DNA of 64,000 bases from Pseudomonadota bacterium (GTDB lineage Bacteria > Myxococcota_A > Polyangia > JAAYKL01), in contig JALNZK010000002.1 of NCBI GenBank assembly GCA_023229365.1, positions 126,343 to 190,342 on the forward strand, in the 5' to 3' direction. The first letter of the stretch is position 1; every line of letters begins with the position of its first letter. Both the position numbers and the translations under genes were made by a program. The notes beneath the pieces are model-generated. The model made no database searches and was not told where the DNA came from. It was given only the letters and a program-made list of their open reading frames with translations. Positions 6,175-54,829 of the stretch are shown piece by piece.

Positions 6175-6741
6175 AACTTAAACACATCTTCGCCAGACCA
6201 TCCGTTTTTCGCATATTGTGCCATCAATGACACAAATTGAATATTAGTGGAGGTGCTGGGAATCGCACCCAGGTCACGCACGGCACGCCAATGAGTTTCT
6301 ACATGTGTATCTTGCCGTTTATGTCGTCTGTATAAGCCACAGCAAGCAAAGGCTCATACGACCTATCGGCGTTATCTTAGTTCAATTTACGCCATCTACA
6401 TTGAACGCAGCCAAATTTTTGACGGGTTTTTGGACGCCTTGGCGAGCTTCCTCAACCCGTGGCCACTCACGCAGCCAGTGCAACGTAATCGTTAGCAACT
6501 AAATTTTTGACCAACTTTTTTACATGGCCTGTTGGTCAGCCATGACATGCAACTCAAGGGCTAAAACCGTCGTTCGATTCTATTCACCCCCGTTTCGGCT
6601 TTTTGCCATCCACACACAGTTTACGAAGAAGCCGAAAACTCCCTCACTGTCTTTCAAACGCATGAATGGGGCCTGTACGCTAAGCTTTCGCTTCGGTCAG
6701 GTAACGCCATTATACTTCAGAAACTTAGTTTGTAAACCCCA

Positions 6742-7630: not shown

Positions 7631-8458
7631 TTAAATATATGCTGCAAATTTCCCTCGAACTGCTGCCTGAACCACATCGGGTTTCACCCCCTTAGCCAGC
7701 AAATACTTTGCAAACTCCTCTGGGGTGTTTGGCTCTACTGGTTTAGTACGTAAACTTTTACGCATCTTCTCTTCTGCCACGTTCATAAGAATCTCCAAAA
7801 AACTCTTCCCTGATTCTATATCCAACCCCGATCCTCGACCCATTAGGTCCATCAATTTGAAAACAATCCATATTTTAATCTTGCGATCTGGGGCGAATTT
7901 GCCATCAATTCCAATTGATGCCTTAATGTGTCTACTAAGTCCCTTCTCACTAAACTCCATATGTTTTGGAACTACAAACCACACAATTTCCTTATCTTCT
8001 GGTGATAGGTTGTCCAGAATAGACTGCCACTTATTGCCTAATTTTTTTATTTGCGGCTCATAATGCTCTGGGTCTTCGTGAGCATGGGCTGTCCATTTCC
8101 CTGGTCCGAAGTCAGGTGACATCATCTGTTTTACAGTGTGCCCAGGAAAATCAGACAACGGTTTGATGGTATTATCGGGATATTTGTAGCCTGCGGTGGA
8201 GGCTTTGCCCACATCATGCAGCCAAGCAAGTATCCTCAAAAGCATTATATCCCCATCGCTGACCGATGGCAAGTTTGAAAAAGCCTCTTCTCCCCTAGCT
8301 TTCTCAAACATTTTCACAGCTACAGGCAGAGCTTTTCTAACAAGCCTTGTGTGTAAAAACACAGACCCCTCTGGGTGCCATTGTGCGGACTGTGGCACAT
8401 TTTTCAAAATATCCCGTAAGCTGCTCATTTCTAACCAATTTTTGAATTCCATTAACAT
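7631..8458 (-). CDS. HD-domain phosphohydrolase (CCA-enzyme-type HD) with a CTS-like N-terminus (MLMEFKNWLEM)
   Basis: H...LHT and AWLHDVGK HD motifs; N-terminal MEFKNWLE. Confidence 0.6.
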   Translation of the reverse strand: MLMEFKNWLEMSSLRDILKNVPQSAQWHPEGSVFLHTRLVRKALPVAVKMFEKARGEEAFSNLPSVSDGDIMLLRILAWLHDVGKASTAGYKYPDNTIKPLSDFPGHTVKQMMSPDFGPGKWTAHAHEDPEHYEPQIKKLGNKWQSILDNLSPEDKEIVWFVVPKHMEFSEKGLSRHIKASIGIDGKFAPDRKIKIWIVFKLMDLMGRGSGLDIESGKSFLEILMNVAEEKMRKSLRTKPVEPNTPEEFAKYLLAKGVKPDVVQAAVRGKFAAYI

Positions 8459-8702: not shown

Positions 8703-9929
8703 ATGAAATATCCCAAATTCAACAAGTTTCTCGAAAGAAAAGACCCAGAGTTGGTTCGCAAACCCAAAATTATCAAAACAGGCGACAAGCTAACTGGAGC
8801 CGATGATCTTTGCGGCGAACCCAATAAGCCACCCAAAGAAGCCAAGACACACAAAAATATAAAAAAAGTAGCCGATGAGCAACCTCAGGTCAAAGAAGGA
8901 TTATGGGCTAAGTTTTTGGAAAAAAAGCAGGCAAGCTCTGTGGTAGAAAAACCAGCCACGGAAATTATTGCTGACTATCCCTTCAAGCCACCCGTTGCTC
9001 CTCCCGAAGCCAAGACCAAGGGAAAAAATTGGGATACTAAGGCTCCCAAAGCCAGCAAACCCGCTGCCTATAAGCAAGGCACAGATGCTAAGCCCAAAAA
9101 TAGTGATGAAGGACTGGGTAACTTAGGGAGTATTCCCCGAGAAGAAATTAAACTCAAGGCAGGCGATTCACCACATATACCGGGCGGAAAAAGTGTTGGG
9201 GATTACACTACAAAAACAGAGACCTTCTTAAAGAAAACAAAAGGCATGCCCCTGAGCGAATTCACCCAATACATGATTAAAGAAGAGCGATCTGTTGAGG
9301 GCGTTCATCAAGCAGAAGTGCCACAAGCTATTAAATACATTGCTTCAGTAGCCAACAATGAAAACATTTTGCGAGATTTGGTTGTGGCGTTGAGACAAAA
9401 AAAATTAATCGGCAGCCTGATGGAAATGTTGATGGAATATCCTGAGTCTTATCGATCCCTTACTAATCTTTTGGGAGAAGAACAAAAAGGCTCTATGCGT
9501 TGCAATGCATTAGTACGAGCCATGAATGAAATCGTTGGTCCTCCTATTGGAATAGACAATATAGGAGACGATGAAGAAGTCACCCGTCGCATTGGTGATG
9601 ATGGCGAACCAGAAGATTTTGAAGACGATGACGAAGATTATCCAGAGGATGATGATGATTTTGAAGATGAGGATGAACTAGGTGACGAAGATGAATTAGG
9701 CGATGAGGATGAACTAGGTGACGAAGATGAATTAGGCGATGAGGATGAGCTAGGTGACGAAGATGAGTTAGGCGATGAACTAGGTGGTGAAGATGAATTA
9801 GGCGGCGAAATGCCTGGAATGGGGAAACACATAATGGGCATGATGGGCAAACATATGGGAATGCATCGAGGAAAGTTTGCAATGGACCATCTTATTCATG
9901 CATTAAATCAATATATGAAAAGAGATTAA
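8703..9929 (+). CDS. acidic protein with DEDELG tandem repeats and an M/G/H-rich tail
   Basis: AAGGAAAA ribosome-binding site; 36-bp periodic DNA repeat at 9661-9822 encoding (DEDELG)n; N-terminus MKYPKFNKFLE is weakly CTS-like. Confidence 0.6.
   Translation: MKYPKFNKFLERKDPELVRKPKIIKTGDKLTGADDLCGEPNKPPKEAKTHKNIKKVADEQPQVKEGLWAKFLEKKQASSVVEKPATEIIADYPFKPPVAPPEAKTKGKNWDTKAPKASKPAAYKQGTDAKPKNSDEGLGNLGSIPREEIKLKAGDSPHIPGGKSVGDYTTKTETFLKKTKGMPLSEFTQYMIKEERSVEGVHQAEVPQAIKYIASVANNENILRDLVVALRQKKLIGSLMEMLMEYPESYRSLTNLLGEEQKGSMRCNALVRAMNEIVGPPIGIDNIGDDEEVTRRIGDDGEPEDFEDDDEDYPEDDDDFEDEDELGDEDELGDEDELGDEDELGDEDELGDEDELGDELGGEDELGGEMPGMGKHIMGMMGKHMGMHRGKFAMDHLIHALNQYMKRD
9661..9822 (+). repeat. in-frame tandem repeat (18/36-bp unit) encoding DEDELG x ~8
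   Basis: gatgaggatgaactaggt / gacgaagatgaattaggc alternating units. Confidence 0.8.
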
Positions 9930-16292: not shown

Positions 16293-17891
16293 TTATCCAA
16301 TGATTTTGTCATATTCCTGTCTGTTGACCGCAACAACAGTATCTGGTGATCTGGTGACATAGATCAATTCCTCGCCATCTTTGTCCCTGGTAGCCAATAT
16401 GACTTCTCTGTTCAACCCCCACAATCTTCGCAGAGAAAGGATGGTATCCTTTGCATAGGAAGGATATAGCGGATATCCATCCCACTGATGCTGTAACAAC
16501 ATGTGCCCTCTATTTAAATGGTTGGGATCAGCCAGCCGAACATCTGGCAATCCGCCGTTCAAATAATCGCCAATTAATTTCTTTTTAATTTTCTTATAGT
16601 CACGACTCTTGATTACATACTCTCCATTAGGTCGATGTTCCCACTCAAAGAATTCATATTTATTGCAAAAATCTTCTGTGAAGAATTCTGAAATAGCGGT
16701 GAAATCATTATAGAATTTTCTAACCTCTAATACTTTATCGTGCCCCAAGCCCAATTTTTCATCCCAATCTTCCCGCTGCTTGATATCTCGGCACTCATCA
16801 TACAGGGGTCCAAACTGGCCCTTATTCCAACGTTCTTCAATATCTTGAAAAATACAGAATCCTAATTTATAGGGATTCATCGAATACTTGCCGCCCAATA
16901 CCCCCATTTTGTGAATAGCATACTCAACAATGCCATTATCGTGTTCTGACTGGCCCAGACTAACGAAACCCTGTACTGCCATTAAGTTAAAATCAACAAA
17001 ACTAGCCCAGCCTTCGTTGAGCATTTTGGTCGGTCGTTGAGGACTGAAATATATTTCTTCCTCATAAATCATAGCAACAATATCAGACTGCCAAGGCTGC
17101 AAAGGTGCATAATCTCGAATGTACCGCAAAATGTCTTTTGTTGGCTCTTTGAAAATGTTTAATTCTTCGGCCACCTCCCTTTTTTCCAACCTCTTCCTTT
17201 GCTCCTTCATCCATTCTTCTGGATTGAGCCAAGGTTCCATATAATCATGCCCCTCTTGAACCGGCAAATGTTTTGGATGATGATAATGCCTCACGTCCTG
17301 TTTGATCGGGTCTTTAAATTTTCTCTGCTCCCAAGCACTAGCTGGATCGACCAACGTGGTAATTCTTAGCACATGATCTAAAAATTCTGTGACTTTTTCT
17401 TTGCCCCATCGTTGCATGTATTTGCGAATTCGAGTACCATGATTCGCCAATTCATTCATCATATTTTGACTAGTTGGCGAAAAGTAAACATTATTTTTGA
17501 AAAAGTCATTATGTCCTAAAGCATGAGCAACAACCGTAACATTATCCACCAACGTATTGGAATCGAGACAGTAAATATAACAAGGATTGCTATTTACAAC
17601 CATTTCGTAAATGCGATGCAGCCCATGTTCATAACCTTGTTGCAATTCATTGTATTCCATTCCCCAACGCCAATGCGGATAACGAACAGGGAATCCACCA
17701 TAGGATGCTACTTCGCTAATTTCATCATAAGTCAGCATCTGCACGACTGTTGGATAATACACCAATCCAAAGTCGGTTGCTGCTTTCATAATATTGGGAA
17801 TGACATTTTGCAATTCCTTAGGCAACACTACGCCAGGGATTGTGCTATCACCCATCAAGATCGGAGAACCACGCATCATTTTGCTTGCCAC
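16293..17891 (-). CDS. spoVR: SpoVR/YcgB-family protein
   Basis: 532 aa, SpoVR-like length and composition; immediately downstream of the DUF444 gene. Confidence 0.75.
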   Translation of the reverse strand: MASKMMRGSPILMGDSTIPGVVLPKELQNVIPNIMKAATDFGLVYYPTVVQMLTYDEISEVASYGGFPVRYPHWRWGMEYNELQQGYEHGLHRIYEMVVNSNPCYIYCLDSNTLVDNVTVVAHALGHNDFFKNNVYFSPTSQNMMNELANHGTRIRKYMQRWGKEKVTEFLDHVLRITTLVDPASAWEQRKFKDPIKQDVRHYHHPKHLPVQEGHDYMEPWLNPEEWMKEQRKRLEKREVAEELNIFKEPTKDILRYIRDYAPLQPWQSDIVAMIYEEEIYFSPQRPTKMLNEGWASFVDFNLMAVQGFVSLGQSEHDNGIVEYAIHKMGVLGGKYSMNPYKLGFCIFQDIEERWNKGQFGPLYDECRDIKQREDWDEKLGLGHDKVLEVRKFYNDFTAISEFFTEDFCNKYEFFEWEHRPNGEYVIKSRDYKKIKKKLIGDYLNGGLPDVRLADPNHLNRGHMLLQHQWDGYPLYPSYAKDTILSLRRLWGLNREVILATRDKDGEELIYVTRSPDTVVAVNRQEYDKIIG

Positions 17892-17903
17892 TATTTATTT
17901 CCT

Positions 17904-44130: not shown

Positions 44131-44486
44131 CACTGGGATTCGAACCCTTTAGCCCCAATAGCAGACCGTTGTTTCCAAGATCATCGGCTTTTGCCAGTTG
44201 GTTCTCGGAACACCACTGAGTTTGTGGCTCAAGTTGGCCATTTAATAAATTTTAAAACGTTAAATAAATATTGGGCTTTCGCCCTATTAGTATTAAATAT
44301 ATAATATCACATATAAATTACTTTGTCAACTTCTTTTTCTTTTTCTTTTTGAAAAAATCATCTTCATCAGTGTTAAACATCTGCGGGAATTTTCTTTGTA
44401 TCATTGGCAAAGAAGGTCTAGCAAAAACAGCTATGCAACTCGTGCCAGTTGCATTTTCTTTTATAATTTCTTTTTCAATCCAATTT

Positions 44487-44942
44487 TTAAAGTTTATAGA
44501 GAGCATATCCAGGGGCTACCTCCGAAGTAGTTATGTTTACCGCCTGGAAAAATTTCTTACTTGTTTTGTTCCACGGACACACACGCAAATATCTGCCTCT
44601 CCGATTGGCTATCTCTCTAGCCTTCTGCATCAATCGACTGCCATAGCCCTTTCTGCGATACTGCCGCTTCACATAAACATAAGTGCGAAGACACTTGCTG
44701 TTTTTAGATAGTCGGAAATCACACATCGCCCAACCCAAGAGATTATTGCCAGAGTACAGAGCGATGGCTAAATAATCACCCTTCCTGGGGTCTGATTCAT
44801 TGGCAGCCGCATGCATGTAATCCTCTTTGTCGTCAGGCGTTGCATCACGCAAATACCTGCGGCTTGCTGGATTGATGCGAGCGTAATCTTTAATCAACCA
44901 TCTCATCTTCCTAAAACCCTCATTTTTTGAGCAATATACCAC
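44487..44942 (-). CDS. GNAT-family N-acetyltransferase
   Basis: RRKGYGSRLMQKA acetyl-CoA motif A. Confidence 0.6.
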   Translation of the reverse strand: MVYCSKNEGFRKMRWLIKDYARINPASRRYLRDATPDDKEDYMHAAANESDPRKGDYLAIALYSGNNLLGWAMCDFRLSKNSKCLRTYVYVKRQYRRKGYGSRLMQKAREIANRRGRYLRVCPWNKTSKKFFQAVNITTSEVAPGYALYKL

Positions 44943-45794: not shown

Positions 45795-46232
45795 ATGAAC
45801 ACAACATTTGAACATTTTGTCGAAGAAAAAGCCCAAAACAACAAAGAGCAAATAAAAGCTATGTTAGGCTCCAATGATTTTGTTTTCTTCTTTGAAAAAA
45901 ACAAAGAAATTTTTGGTGCCCCCGAAGAGAGCCGACTTATGTTTGCCCGCATGAAAAACCCAGACCCCGAAGATAATGACTGGGTTAAAGAAGCTAATTT
46001 CAGCGGATTAAACCTCAATAGAGCCCTAAAGGGAGAGAAAACAGAAAGTCTATTTTCCCATACTGATTTGACCAAAATCAAAATATTGGACCAAGAAGAA
46101 GCATATGATAAATTGTCCAGATTAACTTCGGATACAGATAAGATAAAAACCGTTCTTTCTGACGATGATAATCCGCACCCAGAAGCTCCTGATGCGGCTC
46201 CAGGCATCCAACAATTAAAAGACAAAAAATGA
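45795..46232 (+). CDS. CTS-like protein (MNTTFEHFVEE)
   Basis: 145 aa. Confidence 0.45.
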   Translation: MNTTFEHFVEEKAQNNKEQIKAMLGSNDFVFFFEKNKEIFGAPEESRLMFARMKNPDPEDNDWVKEANFSGLNLNRALKGEKTESLFSHTDLTKIKILDQEEAYDKLSRLTSDTDKIKTVLSDDDNPHPEAPDAAPGIQQLKDKK

Positions 46233-47035
46233 ACTTTAGGCTATTTTTAGAGCGAGAAGAGGGTGCTATAGAATGGGATACATATTATCCCAAGTGGACT
46301 CCACGACAACTTGGCGATAGGGGCATGATATCCGCATACGTTTCTAATAAACATATCAGCATTGACCAAAGCCCCTATCATCCGATGTTGAAAAAAGCCC
46401 TAAGGATATTGCTGCGACAAAAGCCACATTTAGCAAACAAGCCCTTGGATTTTGATGGTTGGTCACCAGGAACATTACAACAATTCTTATATAGCTCAGA
46501 ACCTATTGCCCCTAAAGATACACTCCCACAATTTATGTATCACGGCACATCCCTCCATCGCTGGGAACACATTAAAGAAGATGGCTTAAAACCCCTAATT
46601 GCGAGTGGTGGAGAATATGGGGCAGAGCCAATGAGTGCTCCACTTACCAACCCTAATAATGTTTACTTATCTGCAACTTTTGGAGCAGCTACCAGATTGG
46701 CCGCTTACGACGCTTCCAAAAAAGGAACAGGCGATGTTCCTGTTGTGTTGAAAATTAACACCAAACAACTTGATCCTCAAAAAATCAGACCTGATGAAGA
46801 GTCTCGTGCTACAACATGGCAAAAAAGTCTGCATGGCTTAAACACTATCGCCTACGAAGGCGAGATACCACCACAATCCATAGAACTCTATAAAGCTTGG
46901 AATCAACAAACGGATAAGTGGGAAAACCCAGGACAGTGGCTAGAGCCAACTGATTTTATAGCTCAACAAATGCTTCACAGGACAGGATATAAAGACATTC
47001 CCAACAGCACCGGCAAATATAAGTGGGCTAAATAG
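46229..47035 (+). CDS. Tpt1/KptA-like RNA 2'-phosphotransferase / ART-fold protein with a CTS-like N-terminus (MNFRLFLERE)
   Basis: LRILLRQKPHLAN...DFDGW vs KptA LSFVLRHKPE...DREGW; MYHGTS...GLKP...VYLSATF...VPVVLKI vs KptA LYHGTA...GL...VHLSAD...PVIL. Confidence 0.6.
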   Translation: MNFRLFLEREEGAIEWDTYYPKWTPRQLGDRGMISAYVSNKHISIDQSPYHPMLKKALRILLRQKPHLANKPLDFDGWSPGTLQQFLYSSEPIAPKDTLPQFMYHGTSLHRWEHIKEDGLKPLIASGGEYGAEPMSAPLTNPNNVYLSATFGAATRLAAYDASKKGTGDVPVVLKINTKQLDPQKIRPDEESRATTWQKSLHGLNTIAYEGEIPPQSIELYKAWNQQTDKWENPGQWLEPTDFIAQQMLHRTGYKDIPNSTGKYKWAK

Positions 47036-47194: not shown

Positions 47195-47887
47195 ATGCCA
47201 TTTCGGCCTCCTTTTAATATATATATCAATATGACATTGCCATTTGAAAACAATAAAGACGTAAGAAAGTACCAGTGTTTTGTCTGTGGAGTGCAGTTCT
47301 TAGAACTCAACGAAATGACAGAGCACATCAAAGAAAAACACCAAGAAGGCAGAGATTATGTGCTTTGTCCTTTGCTCTATTGCAAATGTTGCGTTAGGGA
47401 TTTAGTTCATCATTTTAAAGCACGTCACCCTTCTCAGCCCCTGCCCAAAAACAGACAAATGAAAGCTATTGTATGGAAAGATTTTACCGCCCAAGGAACG
47501 GCAAAAAAGAAAAAACAAAGATTTAAAGAGGGTTGGTATGTTTCTACAAAAATGAATAAGCAATTTTATTTTAGAAGCGGTTGGGAAGAAACTGTATTCG
47601 AATGTCTGGACCAAATGAATGAAGTAGCCGCTTATGAAGCAGAGCCTTTTAAAGTTCCCTACATCTGGGAAGGCACTCAGCACGAATACAATCCCGACAT
47701 TCTGGTGGTGTTTAATGATGGGCGTAAAGAGGTTTGGGAAATAAAACCATCAGATCAAACCTCTTTACAACAAAATAAAAATAAATGGCATGCAGCTAAT
47801 GAAATGTGTAAAGCTAGAGGATGGGAATTTATTGTAATGACAGAGAAGGGAATCAATCAATTAAAGAAAAGGGTTGGAAAGAAATGA
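47195..47887 (+). CDS. C2H2-type zinc finger fused to a PD-(D/E)xK nuclease-fold domain
   Basis: CFVCGVQF...H....H zinc finger; NPDILVV...EVWEIKP. Confidence 0.45.
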   Translation: MPFRPPFNIYINMTLPFENNKDVRKYQCFVCGVQFLELNEMTEHIKEKHQEGRDYVLCPLLYCKCCVRDLVHHFKARHPSQPLPKNRQMKAIVWKDFTAQGTAKKKKQRFKEGWYVSTKMNKQFYFRSGWEETVFECLDQMNEVAAYEAEPFKVPYIWEGTQHEYNPDILVVFNDGRKEVWEIKPSDQTSLQQNKNKWHAANEMCKARGWEFIVMTEKGINQLKKRVGKK

Positions 47888-48462
47888 CTTTTCGCATCTG
47901 GTTGGAACAGAATCGTCCACAAGTTGAGCCGAATTTTTCAATGCAAGTCTGGGATGCCTGCATTAAGCACGTTCCTGTTGGTACTACTATTTACCGAGGG
48001 TTTAGAATCCATAAAGATTTGCGAAAAATGACCATTCGACAAATTCTCTCACAATCTTTTAAAAGCAATGCAAAACCCTTCGATCCGTGGACTTTGGATT
48101 TTGCCGTAGCTCAAAGATTTGCTGCCGGGGCTCACAGCAATGCTGATGGAACATCAGGAAGAATGGAAGACACAGCCAGAGTAATTGTATCAGCTAAAAT
48201 TGTCCAACATAGAAATGTAATAGATTTGAAACAATTTGGCGACAAAATAATGGGCCACAACGTAAGCAAAGGCAGTGGCATTAACACCTATTGGCAACCT
48301 AGAATGATTGGCAAAGCAACAATCGATGATCGTGATGTGGAAAATGAAATACCCATTTTAAGAACCGCCTATGCTAACCCTCAACTATTTCCTTTAACTG
48401 GATATTGGACAGAAGAAAACGGACAATGGGTGCAAGGAAACAAACCAGCAGCCTTATCTTAA
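47884..48462 (+). CDS. CTS-like protein (MTFRIWLEQN); possible R-S-E-type ART (IYRGF, SQS)
   Basis: ATGA overlap with the upstream stop; weak ART motifs. Confidence 0.45.
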   Translation: MTFRIWLEQNRPQVEPNFSMQVWDACIKHVPVGTTIYRGFRIHKDLRKMTIRQILSQSFKSNAKPFDPWTLDFAVAQRFAAGAHSNADGTSGRMEDTARVIVSAKIVQHRNVIDLKQFGDKIMGHNVSKGSGINTYWQPRMIGKATIDDRDVENEIPILRTAYANPQLFPLTGYWTEENGQWVQGNKPAALS

Positions 48463-48773
48463 AACCCATCAATAAAAATAACAGTCTCTACACCTTCTTT
48501 GCTTTCTAAATATACTGTATCTGGCTCTATTGTGTTATCTATCACAAGCTCCAATCGCCGTTCTCCAAATCCTGTTTCTAATTGCTCCTCAAAACTTGGC
48601 ATACAATAAAAAGTAGAGGCAATATCACTGGTAGTTCTGAGTTTGGTGGTGCTGAAACCACAACGCCCTTTGATGAAATAATGCAATGCATTAATTTTTT
48701 CAACTTCAGTGGCGGGTGGATGGTCAACAACTATATTAAAGTCATAAGTTAAAGCGTTCATGATCTTAGCCAT
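48459..48773 (-). CDS. hypothetical protein
   Basis: 104 aa. Confidence 0.4.
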   Translation of the reverse strand: MAKIMNALTYDFNIVVDHPPATEVEKINALHYFIKGRCGFSTTKLRTTSDIASTFYCMPSFEEQLETGFGERRLELVIDNTIEPDTVYLESKEGVETVIFIDGF

Positions 48774-49975
48774 TCCCTAAATCCCATCTTACGCAACATT
48801 TCCTTGGTGTTATGTTGCATAATATGTTGCCCAATTTCTTTGCCTTGTAATTCGGCTGCCCCTGGAACTTCATCCCTGTTCATCAATTGGTGTGTTCGCA
48901 ACTGTTGAATAGCACGAGTATCCAGACCATGCAACTGACTCCATGCTTCCAAATCCTCAGGTGACATATCCCGCTGCCCTTTTCTCAGACTCCACAAGAA
49001 GGCAGGATGCTCTTTTAGCTTATCTTGAATATTGGGCAAATGAAGCAAATTGACCAAATACACCACATTGTCCACTTCATCATTAGTGTATTTTAATTGA
49101 TTTAATTTTCTTCTGATCTTTTCCACATCATTGAGCCGCAACAGATGGGCAACCAATATAACAGGATTCTTGGTCTCCACATAATCATGGCTGACCACTA
49201 ACCCTGGAAATACATATTTTTGCAACAATCCTAATTGATGATAGAGACTTACATAACCCACAACTGATTTAGCAGATTTTAAACCCTTAATAAATTCGTC
49301 TCTGACCCGCTCGGGTGCCACAGCCACGCCATTATCGCTTGCCAGCCCATTATTGACTCGTTTTTCAATAGCCGCACGAGTTGCTTCATCAATGCCTCTG
49401 ATGTCGCCATGATTTACACGGCAATAGAACCGCACATATCTTAAAACTCTCAGAGCATCCTCGCCAAACCGTTGGTCGGGATCACCCACAGTTTTAACAC
49501 GTCGCTCTTTCAAGTCTTGTAATCCGCCAACCAAATCAACCACTTCATGACTGTCTAAATCATAATAAAGAGCGTTGATTGTTAAATCTCTTCTTTCGGC
49601 ATCGTCTTGGATATGGGAAAATTTATCAGCTACTTGACGACTGCCAGAATCCTTGCGAAAAGTGGCAATTTCATAATCTTCATTACCAATTGAGGCTATA
49701 ACCACCCCGAATTGATTTCCTACAGCACCTTTGGTATGGTTAATGCCACCAGCTTTAAGAATTTCCATTACTTCTGTGGGCTGTGCATTCGTGGCTAAAT
49801 CGAAATCTTTGGGCTGTTTTCCCAATACTGCATCTCGTACTGCACCTCCCACCAAATATAGATGTTTGCCCGATTTTTTAAATACTCTATGAATAACATG
49901 AATATCCTCTGGCAAATTGATTGACAGGTGCATTCGCACTTCTTTACTTTCTAAAAATTGCATAAAACTAACCAT
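48758..49975 (-). CDS. cca: CCA-adding tRNA nucleotidyltransferase (class II NTase head) with a CTS-like N-terminus (MVSFMQFLES)
   Basis: HLYLVGGAVRDAVLGKQPKDFDLAT, RRDLTINAL. Confidence 0.8.
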   Translation of the reverse strand: MVSFMQFLESKEVRMHLSINLPEDIHVIHRVFKKSGKHLYLVGGAVRDAVLGKQPKDFDLATNAQPTEVMEILKAGGINHTKGAVGNQFGVVIASIGNEDYEIATFRKDSGSRQVADKFSHIQDDAERRDLTINALYYDLDSHEVVDLVGGLQDLKERRVKTVGDPDQRFGEDALRVLRYVRFYCRVNHGDIRGIDEATRAAIEKRVNNGLASDNGVAVAPERVRDEFIKGLKSAKSVVGYVSLYHQLGLLQKYVFPGLVVSHDYVETKNPVILVAHLLRLNDVEKIRRKLNQLKYTNDEVDNVVYLVNLLHLPNIQDKLKEHPAFLWSLRKGQRDMSPEDLEAWSQLHGLDTRAIQQLRTHQLMNRDEVPGAAELQGKEIGQHIMQHNTKEMLRKMGFREWLRS

Positions 49976-49994
49976 ACCTTATATATAATATAAA

Positions 49995-50639
49995 ATGAAC
50001 TTTAGAAATTGGATAGAGCACAAATGGTACGAATTTAAAGATACCGTGGAATTATATCACGGCACCTCTAGTGCCTTGCTTCCAATTATTAAAACGAATG
50101 GATTGGTGCCACCTGATGAGTGTTTAGAGTCATATGCTATTAAAATAATCAAATCATATGGAGTTGCCGCAAGCCCGCAATTAATGGAATGGATTCACAA
50201 ATACGCAATTTCATCAAGAGCTAATGAACCAAACAACAAAATAGCTAACGTAATTTATTTAACTCCCAAATTCGAGAATGCAAAAAACTACGCAAAATCC
50301 ACCCATAAATTTGGGGGAGAAATGGCGGCTGACATTTGGCGAGCTATCAATGTAATTGAAAGCAAAAAAAGAGGTTTGCCAAAAATGCAGGAAATTATAC
50401 CTCCCATTTACAAAGAATCTCATCCTGTAGTATTAGAAGTAGAAATCCCATCTAAATGGATGAATACATATCATGATTTAGCACAACGATATAAAGATGC
50501 ATTAGACTACTGGGCAACCTTGAAATCTAAGCCAGATGTTCACGATTTTATGGAGAAAGAATTTGGTCGCTTTGAAATAAGAGTAGAAGAGACTATTCCT
50601 GCGTCAATGATAAGAAAAATTCACGCAATAATGTCCTGA
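49995..50639 (+). CDS. Tpt1/ART-fold C-lobe-like protein with a CTS-like N-terminus (MNFRNWIEHK)
   Basis: LYHGTS...GLVP...VIYLTP. Confidence 0.5.
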   Translation: MNFRNWIEHKWYEFKDTVELYHGTSSALLPIIKTNGLVPPDECLESYAIKIIKSYGVAASPQLMEWIHKYAISSRANEPNNKIANVIYLTPKFENAKNYAKSTHKFGGEMAADIWRAINVIESKKRGLPKMQEIIPPIYKESHPVVLEVEIPSKWMNTYHDLAQRYKDALDYWATLKSKPDVHDFMEKEFGRFEIRVEETIPASMIRKIHAIMS

Positions 50640-51271
50640 AATATCTTGTGATTCTCTGAATCTTTCCCTGGGATGGCAAACACTACGTTTTCAAACACTT
50701 TGTCAAATTCACCACCCTTCAAAAACACCTTAAATGTAGTAGCAATCATGGCGGGAGAATTATTAAATATTCCACATCCCCATGCTCCAAGAATTAAATG
50801 TTTGTGGTTGTGAACAGCGGCAATTTCAAGAATGCGACGAATACGATTCACAATCAGCAAAGTGTCTTTTGGCTCGGGATTAACCACCGCTGGCATGGAA
50901 ATTACAGCTACCGAATAAGGATCAACAGGGTCTAATTGCTTGTCTTTATTCACCACCACATTAGAGCAATATATAGCATCTAGTCCATTGCGAGGAAGAG
51001 GATAGTATTTATGAATCTCAGGAATATCTAACAATTCTGGCAAATTGGAACGACGAAAAAGGTCTTCTTCTTGAGTGCGAATCGGCATACGCAAATTGCG
51101 AACTGATTCGTAGCCCCCACCAGGACGCTTATGAGAAGCAAAATTTAAACAACAAGCGTGGTCAAACTCAGCGGCTGTTGTGAATGTGTCATTATCAACA
51201 ACTGAGAATTGTGTCTGCTCCACCACAGGAGATGGCACAAATGAGAACCCCTCTGAATATAATTGAATCAT
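50621..51271 (-). CDS. PARG-like macrodomain protein (DUF2263 / TIGR02452 family)
   Basis: LNFASHKRPGGG...QEED...RRS and LILGAWGCGIF. Confidence 0.6.
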   Translation of the reverse strand: MIQLYSEGFSFVPSPVVEQTQFSVVDNDTFTTAAEFDHACCLNFASHKRPGGGYESVRNLRMPIRTQEEDLFRRSNLPELLDIPEIHKYYPLPRNGLDAIYCSNVVVNKDKQLDPVDPYSVAVISMPAVVNPEPKDTLLIVNRIRRILEIAAVHNHKHLILGAWGCGIFNNSPAMIATTFKVFLKGGEFDKVFENVVFAIPGKDSENHKIFQDIIA

Positions 51272-51274
51272 AAT

Positions 51275-51553
51275 CTACCAATGTTCTTTGGTGTTTAATG
51301 TATGAATAAAATTTCCAATCTCCTGCAATACCTTTTCAGCATCATTACCTTCTGCCTCAAAAATTATTTCGCTGCCTGATTGAATGCCCATAGAAAGCAT
51401 TTCCAACACAGAGCTAACATGTGCTCTTTCGCCATTATGTACAAGTATTACTTTAGCTGAAAATGGCTTAATTAACGCTGCCAACGCTGTGCATGGTCGA
51501 GCATGTAAGCCGCAAGGATATGTTAAAATAAGGGTTTTTGTCACTCTGTCCAC
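51275..51553 (-). CDS. HPr-like phosphocarrier protein
   Basis: GLHARP (His15 context) and ...SSVLEMLSMG... (Ser46 context); 92 aa. Confidence 0.6.
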   Translation of the reverse strand: MDRVTKTLILTYPCGLHARPCTALAALIKPFSAKVILVHNGERAHVSSVLEMLSMGIQSGSEIIFEAEGNDAEKVLQEIGNFIHTLNTKEHW

Positions 51554-51870
51554 CTATTATTTTGAGAATGATCTTCTTCTATCCACCTTTGGGCCTGTAA
51601 ACAATCTCTTCTATAAGGACAATGCAAAGCACAATAACAAGCCCGATAGCCAGCATTAAATCCTGATGCGTATAGCTTTAGAAAATGCTCTTCGGCAAAT
51701 TCCCACCCCACATCCTTGTGTTGCTCTTCAGATAAATACCATTTATCCTCCTCAATTGCATGTTGCATTATTTTAGCCTGGAGGATAAAAAAATCTTTGT
51801 TAGTACAAACTTGCTGCATGGCACCTCCTTGCAGATTATTTATACTTGTTATGCTGGTGTTTCCAGCCAC
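51541..51870 (-). CDS. hypothetical Cys-rich protein
   Basis: 109 aa. Confidence 0.35.
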   Translation of the reverse strand: MAGNTSITSINNLQGGAMQQVCTNKDFFILQAKIMQHAIEEDKWYLSEEQHKDVGWEFAEEHFLKLYASGFNAGYRACYCALHCPYRRDCLQAQRWIEEDHSQNNRWTE

Positions 51871-52382
51871 AAATCCCCAGATTTTTCTATTGCCAAATCT
51901 TCATAGGGTGCAGTTCTTCTTCTATACATTTCGTCAATTACATCTGTAAAAACGCCAAGAAAGAAAATGCACTCTTCTGGGGTGTAAAATTCTCGCTGAC
52001 TCATCACCGCTCGCCACAATGCTCCCTTTATAAAAGATCGCATACAATATCTCGCCGGGGGTCTACCTGGAGCATCACCTGTTAGTCCCCAACACAAACT
52101 GGATAGGCTATAATTCAAGTCACCAGCCATATCCTCTTTGTTGGCTGGAAGGGTTCTTGCTAATTCAGTGGCATATTCTTTTAGCTTTGCTCCCATTCCA
52201 GTTATAGTGGTATTAGGAAACTTCGGGTCAGCCAATCTTTTTATTTCACGTACTAAACTGCTTGAAAAAGTGGCAACCAAAGTGGCTTGTATCATTGGTG
52301 ATTCATTACTGGGAATTAGCCCCATCACCTTTGCAATTATTGCATCGTACTTCGATCTATTTTCGTTCTTGATGTATGGCAT
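51849..52382 (-). CDS. hypothetical protein
   Basis: 177 aa. Confidence 0.4.
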   Translation of the reverse strand: MPYIKNENRSKYDAIIAKVMGLIPSNESPMIQATLVATFSSSLVREIKRLADPKFPNTTITGMGAKLKEYATELARTLPANKEDMAGDLNYSLSSLCWGLTGDAPGRPPARYCMRSFIKGALWRAVMSQREFYTPEECIFFLGVFTDVIDEMYRRRTAPYEDLAIEKSGDLWLETPA

Positions 52383-54475: not shown

Positions 54476-54829
54476 ATGAGTTTTAGACAATTTGTAGAAG
54501 ATGCTGCGGCTTGGGATGCTTTTCAAGACGTTTTCTTTGTTGGAGAATACGAAGGGCAAGCAAGTGATTTCTATTGCTGGCTTCGCCAACGCTGGAGTGC
54601 CAATCAATCCCCTCAAGATTATGATTACAAAGGATTGGAAAGATTGTTTGCTGATTGGAAAAAAAGCACAGTTCGTGGTGCATGGTGTGCAAAAATGGAT
54701 CGAAGTCGAGATCGCAAACGAAGAAAAGACTTCGGCCCAGGCAAATATTGGGCACCTACATCAGCAGGTGTCTTCCTAAATAAAAACTTTGTAAAAGGAT
54801 GGAGAGGTATCAATCCAGCAAACCCATGA
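54476..54829 (+). CDS. CTS-like protein (MSFRQFVEDA)
   Basis: 117 aa. Confidence 0.45.
   Translation: MSFRQFVEDAAAWDAFQDVFFVGEYEGQASDFYCWLRQRWSANQSPQDYDYKGLERLFADWKKSTVRGAWCAKMDRSRDRKRRKDFGPGKYWAPTSAGVFLNKNFVKGWRGINPANP

What the first reader, a model, noticed from the sequence alone, without database searches (positions are those of the whole stretch)
51275..51553. Phage-encoded HPr-like phosphocarrier protein
The 92-aa ORF carries the His15 context GLHARP and the Ser46 region of PTS HPr. A phage has no obvious use for a sugar-PTS component. It could titrate HPrK/EI signalling or carbon-catabolite control, or act as a phosphate relay for a neighbouring enzyme. It sits directly downstream of the PARG-like gene, separated by a 3-bp gap.
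Basis: partly seen in the sequence, partly recalled or inferred. Interest (0 to 1): 0.55.

Follow-up and report, generated by a model that had tools for sequence, protein, structure and literature searches.

The report
Huge-phage HPr with a four-cysteine partner
A very large phage carries a genuine copy of HPr, the small bacterial protein that passes phosphate in sugar uptake and nutrient signalling. It belongs to a distinct phage-linked HPr lineage that always sits just after a small four-cysteine protein of unknown function, which suggests these phages tap into the host's nutrient-status relay.

Summary
The ORF is an HPr-family gene (Pfam PF00381 67.6 bits, E 1e-18; TIGR01003 above its cut-off). 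The GLHARP histidine aligns with His15 and a serine aligns with Ser46. The predicted fold matches 40 solved HPr/Crh/NPr structures.

The real gene is 51275-51544 (-), 89 aa. It starts at a GTG that overlaps the stop codon of the upstream gene. The window is part of a huge phage; identical genes lie on contigs up to 340 kb.

The protein belongs to a small monophyletic HPr clade of 16 sequences, defined by a C-terminal LN(T)xxxW tail. His15, Arg17 and Pro18 are invariant in the clade. Ser46 is kept in 14 of 16. dN/dS is about 0.13.

The PARG-like neighbour is not conserved. The constant neighbour, in 7 lineages, is an upstream, translationally coupled 80-92 aa helical protein with four invariant cysteines. 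It carries the C-terminal tail motif of kinase-linked DUF4032 proteins.

No EI or EIIA homologue is in the window. No phage HPr has been described in the literature I searched.

Most likely this is a His-phosphorylatable HPr that host enzyme I charges and that works with the 4-Cys partner. That mechanism is inferred, not shown.

The parts
51275..51544 (-). HPr-family phosphocarrier gene, 89 aa. The GTG start at 51544 overlaps the upstream stop codon. His14 corresponds to His15, Arg16 to Arg17 and Ser45 to Ser46. It has a clade-specific C-terminal tail, LNTKEHW.
   Evidence: PF00381 scores 67.6 bits and TIGR01003 scores 67.3 bits. An identical 89-aa product is called in public assemblies. The top 40 Foldseek hits are all HPr/Crh/NPr. 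Clade alignment.
51541..51819 (-). Conserved partner gene: a 92-aa all-helical protein, probably starting at MQQVCTNKD. It has four invariant cysteines (C5, C63, C67, C73). It carries the motif IEEDKWYLSE..DVGW, which is shared with the C-terminal tail of Kdo-kinase/DUF4032 proteins.
   Evidence: Alignments A1 and A4. DUF4032 tail match. AF2 model with pLDDT 86 and four helices. It lies immediately upstream of HPr in 7 lineages.
51541..51555 (-). Translational-coupling junction: Shine-Dalgarno AGGTGG (51555-51550), a 5-nt spacer, the GTG start of HPr (51544-51542), which overlaps the TGA stop of the partner gene (51543-51541).
   Evidence: Read directly from the sequence. Overlapping or nearly abutting junctions also occur in L003, L008 and L091.
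50621..51271 (-). Downstream PARG-like macrodomain gene (TIGR02452 family), 3 bp after HPr. It is a variable neighbour and not part of the conserved module.
   Evidence: TIGR02452 scores 107.8 bits and PF10021 scores 48.6 bits. It is next to HPr only in the window lineage and in the ERZ1426851 contig. It is absent.
51849..52382 (-). Upstream DUF6899 gene. It is syntenic with the pair only in the closer relatives.
   Evidence: PF21840 scores 47.5 bits. Synteny is seen, and is absent.

Best explanation
The gene encodes a genuine HPr-family phosphocarrier of a phage-specific subfamily. It is made in the infected cell together with a small 4-Cys helical protein from the translationally coupled gene just upstream.

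The most likely mechanism is as follows. The phage encodes no enzyme I nearby, so host enzyme I (or EI-Ntr) charges the phage HPr on His14 (equivalent to His15) from PEP. The phage HPr then competes with host HPr/NPr for phosphoryl flux. Depending on its phosphorylation state, it acts with the 4-Cys partner on a target that is not yet known. The module would therefore read or rewire the host's PEP-dependent nutrient-status relay during infection.

Shown here: family membership, active-site conservation, purifying selection, and the conserved pairing.

Inferred: phosphorylation by host EI, physical binding to the partner, and the downstream effect.
For: HPr family membership and fold.

A distinct clade: 16 sequences are monophyletic among 134 HPrs, and they coincide exactly with the set carrying the LN(T)xxxW tail.

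Active site: Gly13 is present in 15 of 16 members. His15, Ala16, Arg17 and Pro18 are present in 16 of 16, down to about 40% identity. Ser46 is present in only 14 of 16. This favours a His-dependent function.

Selection: dN/dS is 0.12-0.15 for HPr and 0.07 for the partner.

Pairing: the partner gene lies immediately upstream, overlapping or abutting HPr, in 7 independent lineages whose other neighbours differ.

Specificity of the pairing: none of 69 ordinary metagenomic HPr loci has the partner.

Orphan status: no window ORF resembles the neighbours of bacterial HPr genes, and that comparison set included confirmed EI and EIIA.

Possible docking surface: the clade-specific residues are mostly away from helices 1 and 2. 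They are Y9, F62 and N84/W89 in the C-terminal helix and tail (Q55 lies just after helix 2). This would leave the canonical partner face free and offer a new surface.
Against: The host is unknown, so I cannot show that it has EI.

Only 64 kb of a roughly 340 kb genome was visible, so a phage EI or EIIA elsewhere is not excluded.

The residue after Pro18 is Cys or Ser in the clade rather than the usual Ala. This could alter phosphotransfer.

One relative (P0005) is called as a 57-aa product lacking the His region. This is either a pseudogene or an assembly or gene-calling error.

Confidence: 0.45

Rival explanations
1. Phosphorylation-independent regulator or decoy. The phage HPr acts purely by binding, as cellular HPr binds Rsd, glycogen phosphorylase or CcpA. 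It would sequester a host HPr partner, or it would titrate HprK/P through Ser46. His15 would be kept only because it lies in the binding surface.
For: The PDB hits include HPr bound to Rsd, glycogen phosphorylase, FruR, CcpA and HprK. This shows how versatile the helix-1/helix-2 face is. Ser46 is kept in 14 of 16 members. The phage HPr is an orphan, with no EI or EII nearby.
Against: The full phosphotransfer signature G-L-H-A-R-P is invariant at about 40% identity. Ser46 is lost twice (Asn, Asp). Crh, the known binding-only paralogue, has lost His15; this point is from established knowledge. A pure decoy would not need a conserved co-translated partner.
Confidence: 0.25
2. Simple phosphoryl sink or auxiliary metabolic gene. 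The phage HPr boosts or drains the sugar-PTS flux to change sugar uptake. The neighbouring small protein is unrelated.
For: The active site is intact. Huge phages commonly carry host-like metabolic genes. This window has thymidylate synthase, DHFR, a tmRNA and a CCA-adding enzyme.
Against: It is not a recent host copy. The nearest cellular HPrs are only about 30-43% identical and of mixed taxonomy. The clade has its own tail and its own conserved partner. Neither feature would be needed to top up host HPr.
Confidence: 0.15
3. The gene is not phage-encoded. It is an ordinary bacterial HPr on a MAG contig, as NCBI labels it (a Proteobacteria bacterium).
For: NCBI names P0001 'MAG: HPr family phosphocarrier protein [Proteobacteria bacterium]'. 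No virion structural gene lies inside this 64-kb window.
Against: The window carries these phage-type genes: Dda-like helicase, UvsX-like recombinase, phage-type DNA polymerase, endonuclease VII, dCMP deaminase/thymidylate synthase/DHFR, many DNA methylases, homing-endonuclease-like genes and a tmRNA. I saw no ribosomal or other housekeeping genes among the ORFs I translated. A related partner/HPr pair lies 4.6 kb from a Gp23 major capsid gene. A capsid-targeting-like N-terminal tag recurs on about 10 genes.
Confidence: 0.04

Closest known systems
HPr (PtsH) of the bacterial PEP:sugar phosphotransferase system (PF00381 / TIGR01003)
   Same: It has the same family, fold and length. The G-L-H-A-R-P active-site signature has His15 and Arg17 in place, and Ser46 sits at the N-cap of helix 2.
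   Different: It is encoded by a huge phage with no ptsI/crr or other PTS gene nearby. It scores far below every NCBIfam HPr equivalog cut-off, for example 38.2 against 153 for NF008104. It has Cys/Ser instead of Ala19 and a clade-specific LN(T)xxxW C-terminal tail. It is always paired with a 4-Cys protein.
NPr (PtsO) of the nitrogen-related PTS, a regulatory HPr paralogue that transports no sugar
   Same: Both are small HPr paralogues with an intact His site and a presumed purely regulatory role. JGI annotated one clade member (P0132) as NPr.
   Different: It scores 38.9 against a cut-off of 119 for the NPr equivalog. It has no rpoN/ptsN/hprK-type neighbourhood. In the fold search NPr ranks below HPr (rank 40).
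Crh, the catabolite repression HPr of Bacillus
   Same: Both are HPr paralogues used for regulation rather than transport. Crh appears among the sequence and fold hits.
   Different: Crh lacks His15 (it has Gln) and works only through Ser46-P; this is from established knowledge. In the phage clade the pattern is the reverse: His is invariant and Ser is dispensable in 2 of 16 members.
DUF4032 (PF13224), the C-terminal domain of Kdo/WaaP-type kinase-like proteins. This is the closest known relative of the partner protein.
   Same: The partner's first helical hairpin carries the motif (L)E(E/N)(D/N)KWYLSE.(A/H)G.DVG, which ends full-length Kdo-kinase+DUF4032 proteins. 24 of 25 family members hit PF13224 positions 130-160. 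The profile of full-length proteins hits only this ORF in the window, at E 1.3e-7.
   Different: Only about 30 of the 163 model positions match, and the window protein scores 16.1 against a gathering score of 23.8. It has no kinase domain. It adds two helices and three cysteines that the kinase proteins lack.

Membership tests
HPr family (PF00381 / TIGR01003) | The profile score exceeds the curated threshold. | tested here: met
   PF00381 scores 67.6 against a cut-off of 23. TIGR01003 scores 67.3 against a cut-off of 47.9.
HPr family (PF00381 / TIGR01003) | The active-site histidine lies in G-[LIM]-H-[AT]-R-P, at the position of His15 with Arg17. | tested here: met
   GLHARP aligns with the His15 signature of E. 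coli, B. subtilis and Mycoplasma HPr. The signature is invariant in 16 of 16 clade members.
HPr family (PF00381 / TIGR01003) | A serine is present at the regulatory position 46. | tested here: met
   Ser45 of the 89-aa protein aligns with Ser46. The serine is kept in 14 of 16 clade members.
HPr family (PF00381 / TIGR01003) | The protein has the open-faced beta-sandwich fold (beta-alpha-beta-beta-alpha-beta-alpha). | tested here: met
   The AF2 model has the element order E-H-E-E-H-E-H and pLDDT 75.8. The 40 best PDB matches are all HPr/Crh/NPr, with TM 0.52-0.69. The model's confidence is only moderate.
HPr family (PF00381 / TIGR01003) | PEP- and enzyme I-dependent phosphorylation occurs on His15. 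| not testable with these tools
   This needs a biochemical assay.
Canonical PtsH / NPr / FPr / DhaM orthologous groups (NCBIfam equivalogs) | The score exceeds the equivalog cut-off. | tested here: not met
   The best equivalog scores are 38-50 bits, against cut-offs of 110-766. I file it as an HPr-family member but not as any named orthologue.
Canonical PTS operon context | The gene is linked to ptsI (EI), EIIA or hprK. This is typical of HPr genes but not defining. | tested here: not met
   I ran blastp with ORFs flanking 69 bacterial HPr genes, including confirmed EI and EIIA_2, against all window ORFs. Only the HPr itself matched.
DUF4032 (PF13224), for the partner protein | The whole domain matches above the gathering score. 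| tested here: not met
   The window protein scores 16.1 bits against a gathering score of 23.8, over model positions 130-160 only. This is homology of a local motif, not membership of the domain family.
Microbial-type PARG / TIGR02452 macrodomain, for the downstream neighbour | The profile score exceeds the cut-off, and the GGG...QEE catalytic motif is present. | tested here: met
   TIGR02452 scores 107.8 against a cut-off of 50. PF10021 scores 48.6 against 23.5. The translation contains PGGG...TQEED. The spacing between the two motif parts is longer than the usual one as I recall it; I did not test this.

The most novel reading that the evidence does not exclude
The HPr and its 4-Cys partner form a phage-encoded two-protein switch. 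It couples the host's PEP/enzyme I phosphorylation state to a host target. That target could be the Kdo-type kinase-like DUF4032 proteins, whose C-terminal tail the partner mimics. The phage would then time or tune its takeover according to host nutrient status. This would be the first viral use of the PTS phosphorelay as a signalling input.
Probability: 0.2. Interest if true: 0.8.

Novelty: new variant of a known kind. Interest (0 to 1): 0.58.

Why it matters
HPr is the hub of bacterial carbon and nitrogen status signalling. It controls sugar uptake, catabolite repression, sigma-factor availability, glycogen use and, in some bacteria, (p)ppGpp.

Here a virus carries its own conserved HPr with the active site intact, plus a dedicated partner protein. 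This implies that some huge phages intervene directly in that relay. I found no paper describing this in the searched literature. PHROGs gave no family match for this HPr, and BFVD, the library of predicted viral structures, gave no significant match.

The finding also gives a first functional handle on a widespread, uncharacterised 4-Cys 'mini-DUF4032' protein family, and on the C-terminal tail of the DUF4032 kinase-like proteins.

The hypothesis can be tested directly with standard PTS biochemistry.

Tried and rejected
- **Megablast of 5 kb around the gene against GenBank phages:** no match.
- **tblastn of the HPr against the same collection:** only weak hits (below 36% identity). They fall in unannotated faecal 'Bacteriophage sp.' fragments, in short transduction-like records and in Salmonella contigs. 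These look like bacterial DNA, not relatives.
- **IMG/VR scans with the protein and with the clade alignment:** one false hit, a portal protein sharing EMLSMGIQ, and one unrelated HPr between a TnpB gene and a sigma factor. A wider clade alignment was too variable to scan with.
- **The single metagenome scan:** I reused these as a negative control for the partner and as a source of EI and EIIA queries.
- **PADLOC:** no hit for the HPr, the partner or eight neighbours. A defence or anti-defence reading therefore has no support.
- **PHROGs:** no family for the HPr, the partner, the PARG-like gene or DUF6899.
- **The 'phosphate relay to the PARG-like enzyme' idea:** rejected, because that adjacency is not conserved.
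- **A recent host origin of the HPr:** rejected. The nearest cellular hits are about 30-43% identical and of mixed taxonomy, for example Xenorhabdus and Firmicutes.
- **Promoter and terminator scan:** not above the shuffled background. Its best hit is TTGACC-17-TATAGT at 53501-53473 (-), in front of the block of six minus-strand genes.

Full report
**What is at the coordinates**

The mechanical ORF 51275..51553 (-) of 92 aa exists. It is an unambiguous HPr-family protein:
- Pfam PF00381 scores 67.6 bits, E 9.9e-19, covering 80 of 81 model positions.
- NCBIfam TIGR01003 scores 67.3 bits against a cut-off of 47.9.
- 33 solved HPr/Crh/NPr sequences match, down to E 2e-13.

In these alignments GLHARP lies on the His15/Arg17 signature, and the second Ser of 'VSSVL' lies on Ser46.

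An AlphaFold model (pLDDT 75.8) has the HPr order of secondary-structure elements. Its 40 best PDB matches are all HPr, Crh or NPr, with TM 0.52-0.69.

The true start is the second GTG at 51544, giving 89 aa:
- Public gene calls give an identical 89-aa product.
- AGGTGG lies 5 nt upstream of this GTG.
- GTGA overlaps the stop of the upstream gene.

**Phage or bacterium**

NCBI labels the identical protein as coming from a 'Proteobacteria bacterium' MAG. It occurs on contigs up to 340 kb.

The window itself looks like the replication and host-takeover region of a huge phage. It carries:
- a Dda-like helicase, a UvsX-like recombinase and a phage-type DNA polymerase;
- endonuclease VII, a MazZ-like dNTP pyrophosphatase and a CCA-adding enzyme;
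- thymidylate synthase, DHFR, dCMP deaminase and many DNA methylases;
- a tmRNA.

A divergent copy of the same two-gene module lies 4.6 kb from a T4-type Gp23 capsid gene. I regard the phage origin as well supported.

**A distinct HPr clade**

An exhaustive HMMER search of 1.84 billion cluster representatives found only about ten 50%-identity clusters that align through the C-terminal Trp. Below them come ordinary HPrs at 30-43% identity.

Together with sequences taken from related loci, this gives 16 sequences. They form one clade in a neighbour-joining tree of 134 HPrs. That clade is exactly the set carrying a C-terminal LN(T)xxxW tail.

Conservation within the clade, which reaches down to about 40% identity:
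- His15, Ala16, Arg17 and Pro18 are invariant.
- Ser46 is kept in 14 of 16 members. It is Asn in P0128 and Asp in P0139.
- Clade-specific residues are Tyr9, Cys/Ser in place of Ala19, Gln55, Phe62, Asn84 and Trp89.

dN/dS between the window and a 75%-identical relative is 0.12-0.15. dS is near saturation, so this is approximate.

The nearest cellular HPrs have mixed taxonomy. This is an old, maintained lineage, not a recent host pick-up.

**The conserved neighbour is not the PARG-like gene**

Gene tables for seven independent lineages show only one constant neighbour. It is an 80-92 aa gene immediately upstream, overlapping or nearly abutting the HPr start.

What follows HPr varies by lineage:
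- a PARG-like gene in two lineages;
- an opposite-strand gene in two lineages;
- a Dam methylase in one lineage;
- small unknown ORFs in two lineages.

**The partner protein**

In the window the partner is 51541..51819 (-), probably starting at MQQVCTNKD. Its properties:
- It is under stronger constraint than HPr, with dN/dS 0.07.
- It has four invariant cysteines: C5, C63, C67 and C73.
- It is predicted with good confidence to be four helices (pLDDT 86).
- It has no solved structural relative.

Its first hairpin carries the motif IEEDKWYLSE..DVGW. This motif otherwise ends the DUF4032 domain of roughly 410-aa Kdo/WaaP-type kinase-like proteins.

Stand-alone homologues occur in other huge-phage contigs without HPr. 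They also occur in Kiritimatiellae, Lentisphaeria and Verrucomicrobiota MAGs, never next to HPr.

Conversely, none of 69 ordinary metagenomic HPr loci has the partner.

**No other PTS parts nearby**

I took all ORFs of at least 90 aa from the fetched stretches (up to 6 kb on each side) around 69 bacterial HPr genes. This set includes confirmed enzyme I and EIIA. I searched them against every window ORF, and only the HPr itself matched. Within these 64 kb the phage HPr is an orphan.

**Interpretation**

The invariance of the whole phosphotransfer signature, set against a dispensable Ser46, points to a His-dependent function. This is the opposite of the pattern in Crh.

With no phage EI in view, the simplest reading is that host enzyme I charges the phage HPr. 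The HPr would then act with its co-translated 4-Cys partner on an unknown target.

The clade-specific residues are mostly away from helices 1 and 2, in the C-terminal helix and tail. That region is a plausible docking site that would leave the canonical helix-1/helix-2 face free.

All of this is inference. What is shown is family membership, conservation and the pairing.

Three alternatives remain possible: a binding-only decoy, a plain phosphoryl sink, and, much less likely, a misassigned bacterial gene.

**Novelty**

PHROGs gave no family match for this HPr, and BFVD gave no significant structural match. BFVD does hold two metagenomic 'Siphoviridae sp.' proteins annotated as HPr-like, which match only weakly. 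Four literature searches found no description of a phage HPr, and one found no mention of DUF4032 at all.

The protein family is textbook. The phage-specific subfamily and its obligate partner appear to be undescribed.

Noticed in passing
window, gene starts at 7631-8458(-), 26487-26795(-), 39795, 40024, 44318-44506(-), 46229, 47884, 48758-49975(-), 49995, 54476, 54826 and others; also L089:4891: About 10-17 otherwise unrelated proteins begin with the same N-terminal peptide, M-x(0-4)-F-x-x-[WF]-[LIVM]-E. They include a Tpt1-like protein, the CCA-adding enzyme, an HD-domain protein and the 'YHGT' proteins. The strict motif falls in the first 8 residues of 10 of about 104 genes, against 0.17 expected from its internal frequency. 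The proteins show no pairwise BLAST similarity. The motif resembles the T4 capsid targeting sequence concept, in which diverse internal proteins share only an N-terminal tag (PMC3012670). It may mark proteins that are packaged in the capsid and injected. HPr and its partner lack the tag.
   Followed up: partly
window 6245-6591 (-): The phage encodes a tmRNA (Rfam RF00023, 119.6 bits; ARAGORN tag peptide ANDYVALAA).
   Followed up: partly
window 16293-23948 (-): Three adjacent genes look, from their translations, like a PrkA-like kinase (21873-23948), a DUF444/YeaH-like protein (17904-19172) and a SpoVR-like protein (16293-17891). This is the bacterial starvation-response trio, here inside a phage. 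Only the PrkA-like protein was scanned, and it matched phrog_22605 at 340 bits.
   Followed up: partly
window 46229-47035, 47884-48462, 49995-50639, 54826-55242 (+) and 50621-51271 (-): A cluster of small proteins with 'YHGT(S/T)'-type motifs surrounds a TIGR02452 PARG-like macrodomain and a CCA-adding enzyme. One of the small proteins weakly matches Tpt1/KptA RNA 2'-phosphotransferase (PF01885, E 6e-6). This suggests an NAD-dependent ADP-ribosylation or RNA-repair toolkit.
   Followed up: partly
L008:3080-3712 (-): In one divergent phage contig, a His_Phos_1 gene lies two genes upstream of the partner/HPr pair. His_Phos_1 is the histidine phosphatase superfamily, which from memory includes the phosphohistidine phosphatase SixA. 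This is a single instance.
   Followed up: no
ENA ERZ1426851 contig, gene at 2042-2215: The closest divergent relative has its HPr called as only 57 aa (P0005). It lacks the His15 region, and there is a 93-nt gap after the partner gene. This is either a pseudogene or an assembly or gene-calling error. No DNA was available to check.
   Followed up: no
L087:1629-3328 and L088:4217-5916: In another phage-like contig, a homologue of the 4-Cys partner (P0018) sits without HPr between a Clp_N/UVR-domain protein and a ClpP protease. In a 377-kb contig a homologue sits between a NADAR gene and gyrase B.
   Followed up: no
window 20253-20969 (-) and 8703-9929 (+): The first ORF is a 238-aa protein that, from its translation, looks like a truncated glutamyl-tRNA-synthetase (GluQRS-like). 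The second is a 408-aa protein with a long acidic (D/E)DELG repeat tract. Neither was scanned against family libraries.
   Followed up: no
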